Origin: Escherichia phage 121Q
DNA: 64,000 nt
Strand: one strand, 5' to 3'
Sequence record: NC_025447.1
How positions within the stretch are numbered: the stretch's first letter is position 1; every line of letters starts with the position of its first letter. The notes under the pieces were generated by a model. It saw only the letters and a program-made list of their open reading frames with translations. It made no database searches and was not told the DNA's origin. Positions 38,040 through 63,584 of this stretch are shown here, in pieces. A program made the position numbers and the translations under genes.

Positions 38040-38432
38040 ATGACTGAATCAGAACTACACGAAATGATAGATTTCATTTATGAAATGGTGCAAGATAAAA
38101 ATAACATCAATACAATTACTACTGGACCAAGACAAATTGGTAACCAAATGACCTATTCGTTGTCTTTATGGTTACACCCGAACTTCAAGGTTGATTGTTT
38201 GTATTTCCGTCCTGATATTGATGCTTATTATTTTGTAAATCATGATGCATTAATGAAACCAAATAAGCGTACAGTTGATGATACCTTTGTGACACACCCA
38301 TTTTACCTGGCTGATTCCGAAGAAGATGAGTTTCAAAAGAACACAACGTTAAACCTAGGTGAAATTTGCATCCCTCACGAACTTAAAGATAAAATGAATC
38401 ACATCACAGAAGTTATGAAAACATGCTTGTAA
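38040..38432 (+). CDS. EE-x-FFQ-x-S motif family protein (member 11, divergent)
   Basis: EEDEFQKNTTLNLGEI. Confidence 0.5.
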   Translation: MTESELHEMIDFIYEMVQDKNNINTITTGPRQIGNQMTYSLSLWLHPNFKVDCLYFRPDIDAYYFVNHDALMKPNKRTVDDTFVTHPFYLADSEEDEFQKNTTLNLGEICIPHELKDKMNHITEVMKTCL

Positions 38433-38480
38433 GTGCAATGAATCTCTAGTATAATACTATGACTTTTTTAAGGAGAACAT

Positions 38481-39050
38481 ATGAACTTTATTAAATTCAA
38501 CACATCTGAGTTAGAAGCATACTTTAATACAAATAATAAATTCAATATTATTCTTAAAGACGGAACAACTGTTATCGGAGTATCATTGCTTTCATTTGAT
38601 GGCGAAAAACTCAAAACTGTTTATAAATTCACCAATCTTGATGGTGATTACTGGGATACATCAGATGTATCTAAAATTTGTACACATTATGTATTTGAAT
38701 CAATTGAAGTTGGTGATGGATGGGCATTGACCTGTAATGGTAATAAAGTATTTTCTGGTAACATATTTGGGGTAATTTCAAGTAAAGAAATCGTAGACCA
38801 TCATCTTCATGTTCTCAATAATAACGCCAACACTTATACACCTGATAATATCAAAATTCACGATATTGTAACATATACTGATTATAATGGTTTCAGTCAT
38901 AAAGCAATCGTAACTGAAGTTAAAAAACCAAAAAATTATTTCGACCACGGTTTAATTGAAGTATATATGGTAGGTGGCGACACACAATACTTTGAACATT
39001 TCACTTATACTGGTTGGGATAGATTTCTAACCGTTATTGAGGAATACTAA
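38481..39050 (+). CDS. hypothetical protein
   Basis: 189-aa ORF with AAGGAG RBS. Confidence 0.55.
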   Translation: MNFIKFNTSELEAYFNTNNKFNIILKDGTTVIGVSLLSFDGEKLKTVYKFTNLDGDYWDTSDVSKICTHYVFESIEVGDGWALTCNGNKVFSGNIFGVISSKEIVDHHLHVLNNNANTYTPDNIKIHDIVTYTDYNGFSHKAIVTEVKKPKNYFDHGLIEVYMVGGDTQYFEHFTYTGWDRFLTVIEEY

Positions 39051-53397: not shown

Positions 53398-53853
53398 ATG
53401 TTTAAGAATTTTATGGTTATCGTAGCAGTACTGTTTGGTACATCATGTTTCATTTCCCCAGTACACGCAGAAGAACAACGTCAAACTATTAAAACTATTG
53501 GGACTGGTAAAACTCCCCCTAAACGTACTGCTGAAGAATACATGCCTGAAATGCGTGAACGTTATCGTCAGACATACAGGGAAAAACATGCTAATGATAA
53601 ACCCATCAAGAAGCATAAATGGGAAGTTGTTAAATCTCCTTCATTTTGTGCTGGATATGCTAAAGTAAAGATTGAGCAGCACAAAAACCAGTACTATAAA
53701 GATATGTATTCCTTCTATGACTCCAGAATTTCTGACACAGATATGATGGCAGGGAAGGTTGATAAAGAAGAATTTCTACAAGGCTATGATATGATGGACG
53801 ATGACAAAATCATGGAATGCGTTGAAGTGTATGAAAAATACAGAGGCTTCTGA
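53398..53853 (+). CDS. secreted/periplasmic protein with signal peptide
   Basis: MFKNFMVIVAVLFGTSCFISPVHA-EEQ signal peptide-like N-terminus; ATG at 53398 after AGAGG RBS (track start 53392 is TTG). Confidence 0.55.
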   Translation: MFKNFMVIVAVLFGTSCFISPVHAEEQRQTIKTIGTGKTPPKRTAEEYMPEMRERYRQTYREKHANDKPIKKHKWEVVKSPSFCAGYAKVKIEQHKNQYYKDMYSFYDSRISDTDMMAGKVDKEEFLQGYDMMDDDKIMECVEVYEKYRGF

Positions 53854-54830: not shown

Positions 54831-55253
54831 ATGTTCACACTAAGTAATGCAAAATATCTTTTTCTTATTAGTATTATTGGTTGGGTTATGGCTCCAGTGC
54901 TAAATGCACTGGGGTTTTCCGATGAACATAAACTTTTAAATGTTTCAGGTTTAATTCAGGGTATTTCATGGTATACATTAATTATATTTTCAGTGTGCAT
55001 CAATACATTTGCCCGTGATTATCGACGTTTGTTATATCTGAAAGTATTTGGAACTACACGATATAGTTTTGTTTACACTTTCATTTTAGTACCGTGTATG
55101 TTATATGCATTTGTATTTGATTACTATACATATCTATGGGTATGTGGAACTATGTTTGTTATGTTGGAATACATCAGAACTGTTCAAAACTCATATGCCG
55201 ATGAGTTTCATGATCTAGAAGTTAAACGAAAATTAACGGAGCTAAACAAATGA
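54831..55253 (+). CDS. multi-pass membrane protein
   Basis: Several hydrophobic segments. Confidence 0.5.
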   Translation: MFTLSNAKYLFLISIIGWVMAPVLNALGFSDEHKLLNVSGLIQGISWYTLIIFSVCINTFARDYRRLLYLKVFGTTRYSFVYTFILVPCMLYAFVFDYYTYLWVCGTMFVMLEYIRTVQNSYADEFHDLEVKRKLTELNK

Positions 55254-55675
55254 GAGGCTATAATAAGATTTGTATTTTTGTATTTTTAGTTTGTGCATTC
55301 AATTCGTTTGGTTACTACTGTACAGAAAATAATATTTCATATGGTTTAAATCCTTTGTGGTTTACAATTTCCAATGTAGCACAAATTGGTATTGCTCTTA
55401 TGTCTGCACTTATGTTCTGTCCAATTGTCACTATGGATACTGATCATGAAAGGCTTGGATTTCTCCGTGATACTGGAGACGAACCTTACAGTAGATTGAT
55501 TGTGTTGTATCCATTTATTGTTATTTTAGGTACTAACATCCAACTTGGGTCATTATCTAATAGTGTTACATCAGCAGCTATTGCTATATTTGCATTCACA
55601 TTTTTTATGGTACACAAATCAGTACTTAATTGGTATATCACAAAAATGGCAGAAGAAGGTACTAAAAATACTTGA
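55250..55675 (+). CDS. multi-pass membrane protein
   Basis: Several hydrophobic segments; ATGA overlap. Confidence 0.5.
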   Translation: MRGYNKICIFVFLVCAFNSFGYYCTENNISYGLNPLWFTISNVAQIGIALMSALMFCPIVTMDTDHERLGFLRDTGDEPYSRLIVLYPFIVILGTNIQLGSLSNSVTSAAIAIFAFTFFMVHKSVLNWYITKMAEEGTKNT

Positions 55676-59319: not shown

Positions 59320-60108
59320 ATGAGCACTATCGATGAACTGATTCAACGGAATTCAAAATATTACCAACCATCAGAAATTGTGGATAACATTACTAAATCT
59401 GAGTTTGGACCGAACACACGCAAACTCATTCATGTAATGTCACGTGATGGCTTTAAATGTGATTGTTGTGGTGAATCAAATGTAGTATTCACTTTACACA
59501 AGCACAGTACTAAAGAACGTTATAAATTCAGACCTTATGTACTTAAAGGGAAACGCCTTGTACGCATGACGTTAGACCATAATGTACTGGACTGTCTTCA
59601 GGGCGGTAATGATAAAGAGAACATGACTGCATTGTGTGAAGATTGTAACGCATTACGCCAGCATAAGTTTGCTGAGTACAGTGAGTTTAAACACTGGTAT
59701 CATAACGCGGATCGTTCAATCGAGCCTGACGTTAACTACTGCTTCATTGAGTACATTAAGAATGCCAAAGATACATACATTCTTAAATCAATGTCACCTA
59801 TTACCGTGTTTCCTGAGAACCTATTCACTACATTAAAGAATAGTTTTATTGTCGGTGATATTGATGCATTCAAGTATTTTGACAAAGGTGCAAAACATTT
59901 TGAAATTCAATGTCTTAGTACTGCACTATGTAAACTCATTAAAATTTACATAAAAGAGTATTTGGGTATTGACAATGTACGTGTACCAGAGTATACTTTT
60001 TCTATTGAATTCGATTGTGAATCAATTAAAGAGTTTGGAATTCTTTTCAATAAACAAATAGAACTTGCAATTCAAAACGAAATCAAGTACTATACTACTA
60101 ACATTTAA
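59320..60108 (+). CDS. HNH endonuclease (free-standing, homing-endonuclease-like)
   Basis: CDCCGESN ... MTLDHNVLDCLQGGNDKENMTALCEDCNALRQH: Cys pairs plus H-N-H catalytic pattern. Confidence 0.75.
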   Translation: MSTIDELIQRNSKYYQPSEIVDNITKSEFGPNTRKLIHVMSRDGFKCDCCGESNVVFTLHKHSTKERYKFRPYVLKGKRLVRMTLDHNVLDCLQGGNDKENMTALCEDCNALRQHKFAEYSEFKHWYHNADRSIEPDVNYCFIEYIKNAKDTYILKSMSPITVFPENLFTTLKNSFIVGDIDAFKYFDKGAKHFEIQCLSTALCKLIKIYIKEYLGIDNVRVPEYTFSIEFDCESIKEFGILFNKQIELAIQNEIKYYTTNI

Positions 60109-60517: not shown

Positions 60518-60614
60518 GGATATAAAATGATGTTAGAGGCTATCGTTGGTATTGTTAGTTTTAGTCATCTGTGTTGCTTGCTTTGGGTATATGATGATTT
60601 TTGGTGATTAATAC

Positions 60615-60642
60615 TTGACAGAAGATATCAGTACTGTATAAT
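60615..60642 (+). promoter_or_regulatory. sigma70-type early promoter
   Basis: TTGACA, 16-nt spacer containing CAGTACTG, TATAAT. Confidence 0.6.
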
Positions 60643-60687
60643 GTTTATATCAAACGAAATCCACTTTAACAAATGATAGGAAATATT

Positions 60688-60966
60688 ATGTCTTTTTCTA
60701 AAGAAGAACGTGACCTTATTAAAAAAGCAATTTGGTTTTATGCTAATGAAGGGAAGTGCGATGAAGAAAAAGCACGTGAACTGTGTAATATCCTTGAGAA
60801 GAAACAAGAACTGAAAGTGTATCGTATCCGTGATTTGGATGAAGGGGATCGTATTGTCCTAGCTGAAACAAAAGAAGAAGCAGAACAAATCTTCACTGAT
60901 AAAAACGAAAATCCACATTGGATGGAAGAAGTCTGTGATGTTAAAAAAGGTACTTATATCGATTGA
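60688..60966 (+). CDS. hypothetical protein
   Basis: ORF; ATG at 60688 after AGGAAA (track 60673). Confidence 0.5.
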   Translation: MSFSKEERDLIKKAIWFYANEGKCDEEKARELCNILEKKQELKVYRIRDLDEGDRIVLAETKEEAEQIFTDKNENPHWMEEVCDVKKGTYID

Positions 60967-60991
60967 CAGTACTGAATAATAGCAGTATAAT
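60963..60991 (+). promoter_or_regulatory. sigma70-type early promoter
   Basis: TTGACA GTACTGAATAATAGCAG TATAAT. Confidence 0.6.
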
Positions 60992-61084
60992 GTTTATATC
61001 AAAGGGAATGCAGTGAAAGGAAAGACAGCATAATCGTACTCGTCACTGCGTTCCCGCCCTTTTAAATTAAATGAGGAATTAACT

Positions 61085-61393
61085 ATGTTTCAAACTAACA
61101 CTCAAGGTTTTGTAATCATCGATTTGAATCAAAACAGCGGTTATTGGATGAAACCTACTGACGCATGTATGCAGTTTGATTTCTTAGGTTACAGAATTAG
61201 TGTAAGTACTGGTGCTTCTGTACTGAGAGGTGGTTGTATCGTTGAACATCTGGTAACTGATCCAGAAGGTCGTGAGTATGAAATCGCAGGTTCAGTACAA
61301 GATGCCATTATGTTTGTATGTCAGCGTGAAATGAATGGTTCGAACTCAAATGCACTGACTCATGCTCTTTCTCAAGAAGTGGAGGTTCGTTAA
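61085..61393 (+). CDS. hypothetical protein
   Basis: 102-aa ORF with GAGGAA RBS. Confidence 0.55.
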   Translation: MFQTNTQGFVIIDLNQNSGYWMKPTDACMQFDFLGYRISVSTGASVLRGGCIVEHLVTDPEGREYEIAGSVQDAIMFVCQREMNGSNSNALTHALSQEVEVR

Positions 61394-61644
61394 TGAAATA
61401 CATTGTAGCAGTACTCGTCGCATTTTTACTCACTGCATGTGATGCTTCAACCAAAGAACGCACAAGTGATTTTGAACTCCCTACTGAATTAAAAGAAGCA
61501 GGATGTAAGATTTATCGTATGCAACAGGAAGGTGCTGGTGCAACGTTGTATACAGTTTATTGTCCTAATGCAAACACCAGTACTGGATACACTAGCGGAA
61601 AAACACGAATCAACACTTCAGTGATTAATGGAGTACAACAATGA
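61393..61644 (+). CDS. putative lipoprotein
   Basis: MKYIVAVLVAFLLTAC: signal peptide with lipobox L-T-A-C. Confidence 0.6.
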   Translation: MKYIVAVLVAFLLTACDASTKERTSDFELPTELKEAGCKIYRMQQEGAGATLYTVYCPNANTSTGYTSGKTRINTSVINGVQQ

Positions 61645-62009
61645 GCCTTGATACAACCCGTGCAACAGATTTATTCACTCGTCTGAATGATGAAGAATAT
61701 CTTGCTGAAATAAAGTACAAGCTTGAAAAACTGGCTCGAAGTGCTGAAGTAATTGAAGTTAAAGGTCATTTACCAATGGATCAATTCCATACGTTCAAAG
61801 AAGATATGGTTTATTATCCAAATGAAATTTGGATTGAGTGGGAACATTGGACTAACAAAACTCTACGCATTGAAGGTTATTGTGTGAATTATGAATCTGA
61901 ACCTGGTGATGTTACAAAAACTCTCTCCATTTGGTGTACAAAAACACATGAACTAGTTGAGGTGAATTTGAATTATATGAAAGGTTTCCGTTGGGGTGAT
62001 ATTCAATGA
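61641..62009 (+). CDS. hypothetical protein
   Basis: 122-aa ORF. Confidence 0.5.
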   Translation: MSLDTTRATDLFTRLNDEEYLAEIKYKLEKLARSAEVIEVKGHLPMDQFHTFKEDMVYYPNEIWIEWEHWTNKTLRIEGYCVNYESEPGDVTKTLSIWCTKTHELVEVNLNYMKGFRWGDIQ

Positions 62010-62281
62010 TTAAAAAACTATTGACAGTTGTCTTTGTATTCTGTACAATGTTTCTTACAGCATGTAATGATGACGGCAGGTTTAGTGCAAAAGACTTAGT
62101 TCGTCAGGATTGTACATTCACAGGCAAGTCTTTTATTAACGAGTATGAAATATGTACACAATCAGGTCGTATCTGTGGTGGTTGGGAAAAACGTCAGGAG
62201 CGATTGTATGTATATGAATGCCCTGGACATCACAACAAAGTACTAAGCACACACAAACTTGTTTATGATAAGGTTGAATAA
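62006..62281 (+). CDS. putative lipoprotein
   Basis: MIKKLLTVVFVFCTMFLTAC: signal peptide with lipobox L-T-A-C; Cys-rich mature part. Confidence 0.6.
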   Translation: MIKKLLTVVFVFCTMFLTACNDDGRFSAKDLVRQDCTFTGKSFINEYEICTQSGRICGGWEKRQERLYVYECPGHHNKVLSTHKLVYDKVE

Positions 62282-62496
62282 TGACTACCAATGAAATGAT
62301 GCAGGTTATTTGGGATAAAGGTTGTGATATTAAAATCACCAGTACTGAAGTTCGTGTATTCAAAACAGAATATATGGAGTACTTGGACCTTGATACTTAT
62401 AATAATATTGTATCAATTGAACACAAAGGTGCAGTACTGGAAACGATTGATGTAGTTCTCAAGAAAGCTACCGACCTATTAGGAGTGGTAGTGTGA
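62281..62496 (+). CDS. hypothetical protein
   Basis: 71-aa ORF. Confidence 0.5.
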   Translation: MTTNEMMQVIWDKGCDIKITSTEVRVFKTEYMEYLDLDTYNNIVSIEHKGAVLETIDVVLKKATDLLGVVV

Positions 62497-62647
62497 ATAA
62501 CAAAGAGTGGGAAGATTACCGCAAGAAGTGCCGAGAGTTTGATAAAGAACTCACAGGTGCAGTGAACGCGGTAATGTGGGTATCTGCAATTATTGCAGTA
62601 CTTGGTTTGGGTGCTATTATTATTAATAAATTATTCTAAGGACTAAT

Positions 62648-62848
62648 ATGTTTACTTTATATCTTGCAGTAGTACTAACTAATGGTGAAATCACTCGCAC
62701 CGTTGGTGAAGGTGTATATAAAACACCTGATCAGTGTTACTCTGCAACTCATTGGCCTCGTGATGCTGGTGATGAAACTCGCACTGAATACAAATGTATG
62801 AAGGTTAAAGGTGACTTTGTAAATCTAAAGGTTATTGAGACTAAGTAA
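62648..62848 (+). CDS. hypothetical small protein with N-terminal hydrophobic segment
   Basis: 66-aa ORF. Confidence 0.45.
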   Translation: MFTLYLAVVLTNGEITRTVGEGVYKTPDQCYSATHWPRDAGDETRTEYKCMKVKGDFVNLKVIETK

Positions 62849-63366
62849 TGGATATTAATGAGTTGTTGAAATTAGTGTTTAATCGTGAACGCCGCGATAC
62901 AAGACCAATTGAATATCAAGATGTGATACGCATTGAAACTGATTTCTGTTATGGTAAAACAACTCATGATCTTTTGAATCTCTCTGGAAAACGCTATGCT
63001 GATGTTTGTTTTTCAGAGAGAAGTGATGGTTCAGAAATAACAAGTACTGATATTGTTTGTTACGCACGCAGTGCTGATAAATCTTATGAAATAGAACTTA
63101 TATATTCCCCTAGTTCTAAAACAAATCATCACCGCCATATTTTATATGATGTTTACACACCACCTGGTATTGCTGAATATTTTGTTATTGATTATAGTAC
63201 TGAAGAAAATGTGTTTCAACAAAGTTTGATTCATAACTTTGAGGTGAATGATCCATTAGTACCAAAGTTGTTCAAACTACTTGACACCATCGATGTTGAC
63301 TTTGAATTTGTTATGTGCATTAGAACTTCTTTATTCAATGAATTCATGGAACTTTTTAATATATGA
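62848..63366 (+). CDS. EE-x-FFQ-x-S motif family protein (member 21, distal copy)
   Basis: EENVFQQSLIHNFEV. Confidence 0.55.
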   Translation: MDINELLKLVFNRERRDTRPIEYQDVIRIETDFCYGKTTHDLLNLSGKRYADVCFSERSDGSEITSTDIVCYARSADKSYEIELIYSPSSKTNHHRHILYDVYTPPGIAEYFVIDYSTEENVFQQSLIHNFEVNDPLVPKLFKLLDTIDVDFEFVMCIRTSLFNEFMELFNI

Positions 63367-63584
63367 ATAGATACTATGTTGTGTATGAACACGTCTCTGA
63401 ATTTAATAACATACGCGGGTTTTCCAGAGTAGTCACCAAGATGGATGTATTCATTCGTGCTCTTAGTGAAGTAGATGCACTGTTTAAATTGTTTGATGAA
63501 ATTACAAAGTATAACACACCCAAAACACACCGCTATGTGGAAACTGTACATAGCATTATGCTAACTGAAAGTGATGAGGAATGA
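63363..63584 (+). CDS. hypothetical protein
   Basis: 73-aa ORF. Confidence 0.5.
   Translation: MNRYYVVYEHVSEFNNIRGFSRVVTKMDVFIRALSEVDALFKLFDEITKYNTPKTHRYVETVHSIMLTESDEE

What the first reader, a model, noticed from the sequence alone, without database searches (positions are those of the whole stretch)
61393..62281. Two lipoproteins with LTAC lipoboxes (candidate superinfection-exclusion or receptor-masking factors)
Both ORFs start with a signal peptide ending in L-T-A-C, the classic lipobox. Phage lipoproteins commonly block receptors or DNA entry of superinfecting phages. Together with the secreted protein at 53398 and the multi-pass membrane proteins at 54831-55675, the distal part of the window looks enriched for envelope-targeted factors.
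Basis: partly seen in the sequence, partly recalled or inferred. Interest (0 to 1): 0.4.

Follow-up and report, generated by a model that had tools for sequence, protein, structure and literature searches.

The report
Two early jumbo-phage lipoproteins, function unknown
Two small genes in an early-expressed block of the E. coli jumbo phage G17 really do encode membrane-anchored lipoproteins; one belongs to a very widespread but unstudied phage family, and the "T5 Llp / Cor receptor-blocker" labels they carry in some database records are not supported.

Summary
ORFs 61393-61644 (83 aa, "Lipo1") and 62006-62281 (91 aa, "Lipo2") both carry a canonical lipoprotein signal ending L-T-A-C. Only these two of 644 ORF candidates in the window pass a strict lipobox test, and the lipid cysteine is conserved in their homologues.

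The window is Escherichia phage vB_EcoM_G17 (Asteriusvirus). The genes are G17_00138 and G17_00136, annotated "hypothetical". They lie in a translationally coupled chain about 95 nt downstream of a perfect sigma-70 promoter, so they are probably early genes.

Lipo1 belongs to phrog_902 ("DUF4884"), with 930 clusters in a 1.8-billion-protein library. Members occur in Felixounavirus, Certrevirus, T4-like, jumbo and Vibrio phages. The gene stands alone and its function is unknown. Lipo2 is confined to Asteriusvirus and Munch-like jumbo phages.

Superinfection exclusion remains a reasonable guess but is untested. Lipo1's Asp at +2 and its strong conservation across phages of different hosts argue for a conserved periplasmic target, not outer-membrane receptor masking. 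Interest is modest.

The parts
60963..60991 (+). Perfect sigma-70 consensus promoter (TTGACA-17-TATAAT), about 95 nt upstream of the first gene of the chain
   Evidence: It is one of 10 perfect sites in the window, all on the + strand, against 0.26 expected.
61085..61393 (+). 102-aa soluble ORF (G17_00139, phrog_26720). It is the first gene of the coupled chain, and its stop overlaps the Lipo1 start (TAATG).
61393..61644 (+). Lipo1 (G17_00138 = 121Q gp175), an 83-aa prolipoprotein. The signal peptide is aa 1-15, the lipobox is LTAC, and the lipid Cys16 codon is 61438-61440. The mature 68-aa domain has Cys38 and Cys57. It is a member of phrog_902 ('DUF4884').
61641..62009 (+). 122-aa ORF between the two lipoproteins (G17_00137, phrog_22236). 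It has no signal peptide or transmembrane segment, and ATGA overlaps on both sides. It is found only in Asteriusvirus, with distant copies in Klebsiella and Erwinia jumbo phages.
62006..62281 (+). Lipo2 (G17_00136 = 121Q gp177), a 91-aa prolipoprotein. The signal peptide is aa 1-19, the lipobox is LTAC, and the lipid Cys20 codon is 62063-62065. The mature 72-aa domain has conserved Cys36/Cys72 plus a lineage-specific pair, Cys50/Cys57. It belongs to phrog_31263.
62281..62639 (+). Two further coupled small ORFs: a 71-aa soluble one (62281-62496) and a 48-aa one with a hydrophobic C-terminal stretch (62493-62639, read by eye; it fell below the threshold). They are co-transcribed neighbours with no shown functional link.

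Best explanation
These are two real, unrelated or at most very distantly related, stand-alone phage lipoprotein genes. Host RNA polymerase probably transcribes them early from a consensus sigma-70 promoter. The products would be exported by Sec, lipid-modified at Cys16 and Cys20 by the host Lgt/LspA/Lnt pathway, and tethered by a short linker to a membrane face in the periplasm. There each would fold into a small, disulfide-stapled, beta-rich domain. Lipo1 belongs to a very large uncharacterised family of virulent-phage lipoproteins (phrog_902 / 'DUF4884'). Lipo2 belongs to a small family specific to one clade of jumbo phages. Neither is a member of the Llp/Cor family, and neither is a spanin. 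My committed guess at function is an inference and has not been shown. Each protein acts alone on a conserved component of the host periplasm or envelope and changes the infected cell's envelope soon after infection. The most likely benefit is protection against secondary attack at a step after adsorption, as with T4 Spackle or Imm, meaning a block in cell-wall penetration or genome entry. Allosteric masking of an outer-membrane receptor in the manner of T5 Llp seems less likely. Confidence by step: real exported early lipoproteins about 0.85; not Llp/Cor homologues about 0.8; protective or exclusion function about 0.35.
For: The lipoprotein signals are canonical and conserved, and both genes are under purifying selection. 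On expression timing, a perfect TTGACA-17-TATAAT promoter lies at 60963-60991, and all 10 perfect sites in the window are on the coding strand against 0.26 expected. Start/stop overlaps link 61085 -> Lipo1 -> 61641 -> Lipo2 -> 62281 -> 62493. On family membership, Lipo1 hits phrog_902 at 2.6e-14. A profile search of 1.84 billion representatives gave 930 clusters at E<=1e-3 and 354 at E<=1e-10, and all 120 members tested hit phrog_902. Homologues occur in Felixounavirus, Certrevirus, Acinetobacter T4-like Acj61, Aeromonas, Erwinia jumbo and Vibrio phages and in no plasmid. The gene stands alone: it is the only gene shared between the neighbourhoods of different lineages, and phage EJP2 carries its Lipo1 and Lipo2 homologues about 29 genes apart. 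A conserved target is suggested by 30-50% identity and a fixed motif ([YF]xLPxEL..CK[IV]Y..VVRCPNSxTTT..GK) across phages of different host genera. By contrast, Llp and Cor proteins share only 18-25% identity even on the same receptor (bioRxiv 10.64898/2026.03.26.714494). Lipo1 begins C-D-A-S in all Asteriusvirus copies, and Asp+2 is the enterobacterial Lol-avoidance signal (PMC6469965). In Acj61 the Lipo1 homologue sits 28 nt upstream of a confirmed spackle gene (phrog_1586, 8.9e-17). The AF2 models show a short helix followed by a Cys-hairpin-Cys-Pro core in both proteins.
Confidence: 0.4

Rival explanations
1. The two proteins are Llp/Cor-type receptor maskers. They would be outer-membrane lipoproteins that bind the periplasmic face of the phage's outer-membrane receptor and switch it off allosterically. 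This is what the GenBank labels imply: 'lytic conversion lipoprotein' in fEgEco12 and 'Cor superinfection exclusion protein' in vB_Ec-M-J.
For: The size and make-up are the same: a mature domain of about 60-70 aa, a lipobox, one disulfide, and a short helix plus beta strands. Early expression matches llp. Full-length hhalign against T5 Llp gives Prob 92% for Lipo1 and 84% for Lipo2. There is a weak phrog_1119 (Cor) hit at E = 0.0046. A local 'C-x-x-Y-x-M-Q' resemblance exists. The Llp authors note that the fold is common among small phage proteins.
Confidence: 0.12
2. The proteins are lysis components. They would be o-spanins or u-spanins, or lipoproteins that regulate lysis timing, for example in lysis inhibition.
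For: Phage lipoproteins are most often o-spanins. There are weak PHROG hits to 'Rz-like spanin' families (E 0.07-0.2 for Lipo1; 5 of 120 family members at E<=1e-3).
Against: The curated spanin pair of the near-identical phage 121Q is gp511/gp512 at 245.3-246.0 kb, which are different genes with different sequences (PMC6139136 supplement). No neighbouring gene has the N-terminal transmembrane domain of an i-spanin, and neither protein has the C-terminal transmembrane domain of a u-spanin. The genes lie behind a consensus host promoter in an early block, away from lysis genes. The spanin hits fall on the signal peptide.
Confidence: 0.08
3. The proteins take over or counter-defend the host envelope, with no connection to exclusion. 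They would inhibit or redirect a conserved host periplasmic enzyme or machine, such as cell-wall hydrolases, proteases, Tol-Pal/Lpp, Lol/Bam/Lpt, or an envelope-located defence. The effect would be to stabilise the infected cell or block an abortive response.
For: The evidence is the same as for the best explanation: early expression, a stand-alone gene, and strong conservation across phages of different hosts and receptors. None of it distinguishes 'protect against other phages' from 'manipulate the host'.
Against: No PADLOC or anti-defence family hit, no known precedent in this family, and no fold match to inhibitor families such as MliC or PliG.
Confidence: 0.3
4. The two lipoproteins, together with the 122-aa protein between them, form one three-part system.
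For: The genes are tightly coupled by ATGA overlaps. The trio is conserved across Asteriusvirus.
Against: EJP2 carries the Lipo1 and Lipo2 homologues about 29 genes apart. Munch, Kae01 and EJP2 have Lipo2 in a syntenic block without Lipo1 or the 122-aa gene next to it. Elsewhere Lipo1-family genes have no conserved neighbour. The 122-aa protein has no export signal.
Confidence: 0.08

Closest known systems
phrog_902 / 'DUF4884 domain-containing' phage lipoproteins (for example Acj61p058, PBES02 ADU18_0224, Felixounavirus heid orf at 64.7 kb, Aeh1 'lipoprotein')
   Same: Lipo1 is a member. It matches the HMM at 2.6e-14 and shares the lipobox, two invariant cysteines, the LPxEL..CKIY..VVxCPN..GK motif, the length, and an early-region location.
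   Different: There is no real difference. Asteriusvirus copies carry a 2-residue insert before Cys38 and Asp at +2. The family has no known function. Lipo2 is not a demonstrable member (E = 0.047; mature-profile Prob 2.3%).
T5 Llp / Cor (T1, phi80, N15, HK022) superinfection-exclusion lipoproteins (phrog_1119; PDB 8A60, 7QJF)
   Same: They are small, early phage lipoproteins of similar size with one disulfide and a helix-plus-beta-strands make-up. They are a plausible functional analogy.
   Different: There is no similarity in the mature sequence and no fold hit. The disulfide topology differs. The genes are not next to a receptor-binding gene. Lipo1 has Asp+2, whereas Llp has Ser+2 and N15 Cor has Ser+2. 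Conservation across hosts is far higher than among Llp/Cor proteins.
T4 Spackle (Sp) and Imm
   Same: They are early, envelope-located, stand-alone exclusion factors of a virulent myovirus that act after adsorption. In Acj61 a Lipo1-family gene lies directly upstream of sp.
   Different: Sp is a soluble periplasmic protein and Imm an integral membrane protein; neither is a lipoprotein. No sequence relation was found: no phrog_1586 hit for Lipo1 or Lipo2.
o-spanins (Rz1 type; 121Q gp512)
   Same: They are small phage lipoproteins with periplasmic cysteines.
   Different: The Asteriusvirus spanin pair lies elsewhere in the genome. There is no partner i-spanin, no proline-rich periplasmic domain, and the genes sit in an early context, not a lysis one.
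Plasmid entry-exclusion lipoproteins (RP4 TrbK; F TraT)
   Same: They are small lipoproteins that stop a second DNA entry event. The TrbK model gives a weak hit to Lipo1 (E = 0.0056, 16.6 bits).
   Different: The hit is below the curated cut-off of 23 bits and covers residues 4-43, which are mainly signal peptide. No homologue was found on any of 72,556 plasmids.

Membership tests
Bacterial (SPase II) lipoproteins | N-terminal signal with a K/R n-region, an uncharged hydrophobic h-region, and the lipobox [LVI][ASTVI][GAS]C with Cys at position 15-35 | tested here: met
   Both proteins pass a strict heuristic and a PROSITE-type rule. They are the only 2 of 644 candidates under the strict heuristic and 2 of 3 under the looser rule.
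Bacterial (SPase II) lipoproteins | The lipid-acceptor Cys is conserved in homologues | tested here: met
   It is invariant in 18/18 Lipo2 homologues and at least 90% conserved in the 120-sequence Lipo1 alignment. 114/120 and 18/18 pass the rule.
Bacterial (SPase II) lipoproteins | Globomycin-sensitive processing and acylation of the Cys | not testable with these tools
   This needs an experiment. SignalP and LipoP were also unavailable.
phrog_902 / DUF4884-labelled phage lipoproteins | Significant match to the family HMM over the mature domain | tested here: met
   Lipo1 scores E = 2.6e-14 over residues 1-73. All 120 relatives hit phrog_902. Lipo2 scores only E = 0.047, so this is not met for Lipo2.
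phrog_902 / DUF4884-labelled phage lipoproteins | Two conserved cysteines flanking the first hairpin, plus the LPxEL and CPN..GK motifs | tested here: met
   C38 and C57 are invariant. P30, P58, G69 and K70 are at least 90% conserved.
Llp/Cor superinfection-exclusion lipoproteins | Sequence or profile similarity in the mature domain | tested here: not met
   hhalign on mature parts gives Prob 1.5-2.5% for Lipo1 and 0.05% for Lipo2 against Llp, and 0.1-0.5% against N15 Cor. The 92% and 84% seen with signal peptides included are artefacts. BLASTP gives no hit.
Llp/Cor superinfection-exclusion lipoproteins | The Llp fold | tested here: not met
Llp/Cor superinfection-exclusion lipoproteins | A disulfide linking the N-terminal region to the C-terminus (Llp C11-C58; N15 Cor C12-C60) | tested here: not met
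   In mature numbering, Lipo1 has Cys23 and Cys42 of 68, and Lipo2 has Cys17 and Cys53 (plus 31 and 38) of 72. Both have long tails after the last Cys. The disulfide pairing itself is inferred.
Llp/Cor superinfection-exclusion lipoproteins | Outer-membrane sorting (no Asp at +2) | tested here: inconclusive
   Lipo1 begins C-D-A-S, with Asp+2 invariant in Asteriusvirus. That predicts inner-membrane retention, but +3 is Ala and not one of the usual following residues. Lipo2 begins C-N-D-D, which is ambiguous. Across the family, +2 varies.
Llp/Cor superinfection-exclusion lipoproteins | Gene adjacent to the receptor-binding or tail-fibre gene | tested here: not met
   T5 llp abuts oad and N15 cor lies within the tail-fibre cluster. 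Here all neighbours within about 10 kb are small hypothetical genes downstream of a sigma-factor gene.
Llp/Cor superinfection-exclusion lipoproteins | Binds and inactivates the phage's outer-membrane receptor, with loss of adsorption | not testable with these tools
   The Asteriusvirus receptor is not established; flagella have been suggested for SHEFM2K (PMC11895373).
Two-component or unimolecular spanins | o-spanin gene embedded in, overlapping or adjacent to an i-spanin gene with an N-terminal transmembrane domain; or a C-terminal transmembrane domain for a u-spanin | tested here: not met
   [quoted passage not shown] The curated spanins of 121Q are gp511/gp512.
T4 Spackle | Match to the spackle family (phrog_1586) | tested here: not met
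   Neither Lipo1 nor Lipo2 hits it at E<=1. The Acj61 neighbour does, at 8.9e-17.

The most novel reading that the evidence does not exclude
The phrog_902 / 'DUF4884' lipoproteins, to which Lipo1 belongs, would be a previously unrecognised and very widespread class of early effectors of virulent phages. They would hit one conserved periplasmic target in Gammaproteobacteria, for example by neutralising the cell-wall-penetration step of incoming phages or by disabling a host envelope machine. That would be a mechanism of exclusion or takeover distinct from both Llp/Cor receptor masking and T4 Sp/Imm. Lipo2 would be a second, independent solution built on a similar disulfide-stapled hairpin design.
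Probability: 0.25. Interest if true: 0.6.

Novelty: new variant of a known kind. Interest (0 to 1): 0.33.

Why it matters
Small early phage lipoproteins are a known route to superinfection exclusion, but only the Llp/Cor family has been worked out. Lipo1 shows that a different family is far more widespread among virulent phages: 930 clusters at 50% identity, apparently present throughout Felixounavirus, and also found in Certrevirus, T4-like, jumbo and Vibrio phages. The family is strongly conserved and completely unstudied. Identifying its target could reveal a new weak point of the Gram-negative envelope. It could also explain cross-exclusion between therapeutic phages used in cocktails. On the practical side, the analysis shows that 'Llp' and 'Cor' labels in deposited jumbo-phage genomes are most likely artefacts of signal-peptide similarity in profile searches, and they should not be propagated.

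Tried and rejected
1. Pfam, NCBIfam and PADLOC scans of both proteins and of 120 Lipo1 relatives gave nothing above threshold. The precomputed 'PF16225 DUF4884' tag was not reproduced with the current Pfam library.

2. PDB sequence and profile searches gave only signal-peptide-level hits.

3. Full-length hhalign against T5 Llp looked convincing at 92% and 84%. I rejected it after trimming the signal peptides and running shuffled and reversed controls.

4. Paralogy between Lipo1 and Lipo2 is not demonstrated. The only shared element is a 12-13 residue 'YVY-x-CP' motif, with score 15.1 against a shuffle maximum of 13.4.

6. The spanin hypothesis was rejected using the curated spanin tables.

7. 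Guilt-by-association found no conserved neighbour across lineages.

8. A plasmid search gave no hit.

9. Literature searches for Asteriusvirus lipoproteins, DUF4884, fEgEco12, Sharanji and SHEFM2K found no functional data.

10. Virion proteomics of phAPEC6 could not be used, because that record does not annotate either gene.

Full report
**Identity of the window.** Positions 60600-63400 are 100% identical to Escherichia phage vB_EcoM_G17 (MK327931, a 371-kb jumbo myovirus of the genus Asteriusvirus) and to phage Sharanji. They are 90-97% identical to about 30 other Asteriusvirus genomes, including PBECO4, phAPEC6, slurp01 and fEgEco12. The window's + strand is the record's minus strand. The two ORFs are G17_00138 (identical to 121Q gp175) and G17_00136 (identical to 121Q gp177), both deposited as "hypothetical protein".

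**The observation.** ORF 61393-61644 (83 aa, "Lipo1") begins MKYIVAVLVAFLLTAC-DAS. ORF 62006-62281 (91 aa, "Lipo2") begins MIKKLLTVVFVFCTMFLTAC-NDD. Each has a basic n-region, an uncharged hydrophobic core and the lipobox L-T-A-C.
- A strict heuristic applied to all 644 Met-start ORF candidates of at least 40 aa in six frames returns only these two.
- A PROSITE-style rule returns these two plus ORF 53398.
- The lipid cysteine is invariant in 18 Lipo2 homologues and nearly invariant in 120 Lipo1 relatives.
- dN/dS between Asteriusvirus genomes is about 0.2 for both genes.

**Expression context.** The genes lie in a long one-directional run of small genes downstream of a phage sigma-factor gene.
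- The window contains 10 perfect TTGACA-N16-18-TATAAT sites, all on the coding strand, where 0.26 are expected.
- One of them, at 60963-60991, lies about 95 nt upstream of ORF 61085.
- From there the genes are chained by overlapping stop and start codons: 61085 -> Lipo1 -> 61641 (122 aa) -> Lipo2 -> 62281 -> 62493.

I infer early transcription by host RNA polymerase and coupled translation. This inference has not been shown directly.

**Lipo1's family.** Lipo1 matches phrog_902 (unknown function) at 2.6e-14, and the Cor family phrog_1119 only at 0.0046.
- tblastn finds homologues in 593 phage records. These include the Felixounavirus genomes sampled, Certrevirus and Vequintavirinae, the T4-like Acinetobacter phage Acj61, Erwinia jumbo phages and a large set of 114-kb Vibrio phages.
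- No homologue was found on plasmids.
- A profile search of 1.84 billion representative proteins gives 930 clusters at E<=1e-3 and 354 at E<=1e-10. All 120 members tested hit phrog_902.
- None hits a current Pfam or NCBIfam model above noise. Public records call the family "DUF4884".
- The family signature is the lipid Cys, a linker of about 10 residues, then [YF]xLPxEL, C-K-[IV]-Y, VV-x-C-P-N and G-K. C38 and C57 are invariant.
- Identity stays at 30-50% between phages of E. coli, Vibrio, Acinetobacter and Erwinia.
- The gene is always in an early or replication region, but it has no conserved neighbour.
- The one suggestive case is Acj61, where it sits 28 nt upstream of a confirmed spackle gene.

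**Lipo2's family.** Lipo2 is restricted to Asteriusvirus and to related jumbo phages (Munch, 7t3, PHA46, fENko-Kae01, EJP2) and a few metagenomic relatives. The lipobox, AK-x-L, C-x-[FY]-TG-x-S, R-x-Y-[VLI]-Y-x-C and one cysteine pair are conserved; G17 has a second pair. It lies in a loosely syntenic block in those phages, without Lipo1 or the 122-aa gene beside it. EJP2 carries its Lipo1 homologue about 29 genes away. The two lipoproteins are therefore not an obligate pair.

**Are they Llp or Cor?** GenBank record fEgEco12 calls both "lytic conversion lipoprotein", and vB_Ec-M-J calls Lipo1 "Cor superinfection exclusion protein". The fEgEco12 annotation used BLASTP and HHpred (PMC13070987).
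- I reproduced the likely source of those labels. Full-length hhalign against T5 Llp gives Prob 92% for Lipo1 and 84% for Lipo2.
- With signal peptides removed, these fall to 1.5-2.5% and 0.05% against Llp, and to 0.1-0.5% against N15 Cor. The scores lie within the range of column-shuffled controls. BLASTP finds nothing.
- Foldseek of Lipo1 against BFVD returned only its own family among the rows shown.
- The defining N-to-C disulfide of Llp (C11-C58; bioRxiv 10.64898/2026.03.26.714494) is replaced here by cysteines that flank the first beta-hairpin.
- llp and cor genes sit beside receptor-binding or tail-fibre genes (PMC13164509). These genes do not.
- Lipo1 starts C-D-A-S in every Asteriusvirus copy. 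Asp+2 is the enterobacterial inner-membrane retention signal (PMC6469965), whereas Llp and Cor have Ser+2 and act at the outer membrane.

Membership in the Llp/Cor family is therefore not supported. An Llp-like way of working is not excluded, but it has no positive evidence.

**Are they spanins?** No. The curated spanin pair of 121Q is gp511/gp512, about 245 kb into that genome, with different sequences (PMC6139136 supplement). No flanking gene has the transmembrane domain of an i-spanin, and neither lipoprotein has a C-terminal one.

**Relation between the two.** Both models show a short helix, a Cys, a beta-hairpin, then Cys-Pro, and both share a "YVY-x-CP" motif. Profile comparison of the mature parts gives Prob 2.3% and a score only just above shuffles. 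Common ancestry is possible but not demonstrated.

**Most likely mechanism.**
- Shown: canonical, conserved lipoprotein signals; purifying selection; family distribution; the stand-alone nature of the genes; absence of a relation to Llp, Cor or spanins.
- Inferred: early expression, export and lipidation, disulfide formation, and inner-membrane retention of Lipo1. The last is uncertain because +3 is Ala and the +2 residue varies across the family (D 31, S 21, E 20, T 18, N 11 of 138).
- Guess: each protein binds a conserved periplasmic or envelope component and alters the infected cell's envelope early. The most probable benefit is exclusion of, or protection from, secondary phage attack after adsorption, in the style of T4 Sp or Imm. 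The argument is that strong conservation across phages with different hosts and receptors fits a conserved target better than a variable outer-membrane receptor. Llp and Cor proteins are only 18-25% identical even on the same receptor.

A host-takeover or anti-defence role is nearly as likely and cannot be separated from exclusion here.

The distal window is modestly enriched in ORFs with hydrophobic segments: 8/26 against 10/97, Fisher p = 0.024, with a post-hoc boundary.

**Verdict.** These are real lipoproteins in an early jumbo-phage gene block. Lipo1 belongs to a very large uncharacterised phage family and Lipo2 to a small clade-specific one. Existing Llp/Cor labels are most likely signal-peptide artefacts. 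Function remains unknown, and exclusion is a reasonable but untested hypothesis. Interest is modest (0.33). The most interesting aspect is the breadth and conservation of the phrog_902 family.

Noticed in passing
window 1871, 20055, 34131, 35991, 36538, 52464, 54310, 55672, 60615, 60963 (+ strand): There are ten perfect TTGACA-N16-18-TATAAT promoters, all on the coding strand, against 0.26 expected by chance. The whole 64-kb window looks like a host-RNA-polymerase-driven early region of the jumbo phage, even though the phage encodes its own sigma factor just upstream.
   Followed up: partly
It begins MFKNFMVIVAVLFGTSC-FISPVHA-EE. It passes a loose lipoprotein rule (Cys17, atypical G-T-S-C box) and also has an AxA-like VHA|EE signal peptidase I site. 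Secreted protein or lipoprotein is unresolved.
   Followed up: no
L008 2496-2783, L009 2503-2793, L010 2496-2783; proteins P0035, P0038: The C-terminal tail '...KLTPEERKALGLE' occurs on 2 of 150 Lipo1-family representatives. It also occurs on an unrelated 95-aa protein two genes upstream of the Lipo2 homologue in Munch, fENko-Kae01 and EJP2. It may be a portable C-terminal peptide motif.
   Followed up: no
L018 (phAPEC6 MK817115) 588-836 and 1204-1476: Neither lipoprotein gene is annotated in the phAPEC6 record; there are gaps where the ORFs lie. Published virion proteomics of that phage therefore could not have detected them.
   Followed up: partly
window 61393-62009: Lipo1 and the 122-aa gene form a local divergence hot spot. 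They are about 92% nucleotide-identical between G17 and fEgEco12, vB_Ec-M-J or phAPEC6. The 102-aa gene upstream is 98-99% identical, and Lipo2 is 95.6-98.9% identical.
   Followed up: partly
window 62021-62049: An 11/12 sigma-70-like site (TTGACA-17-TACAAT) lies inside the codons for the Lipo2 signal peptide. It could be an internal promoter for downstream genes, or a chance consequence of Leu-Thr codons.
   Followed up: no
L011 (T5 NC_005859) 38430-38663: The RefSeq T5 record names the llp gene 'lpp' and its product 'Cor superinfection exclusion protein'. This shows how loosely these labels are applied in databases.
   Followed up: no
window 62648-62848: This 66-aa ORF gives a weak match to DUF1482 (E = 0.0016, below cut-off) and to phrog_1092. 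It has a short hydrophobic N-terminus and two cysteines, and may be another small exported protein in the same operon.
   Followed up: no
window 59320-60108: This 262-aa ORF has weak HNH-endonuclease matches (E about 0.02) and is annotated HNH endonuclease in sister phages. It has a 27%-identical counterpart at the syntenic position in Munch and Kae01.
   Followed up: partly
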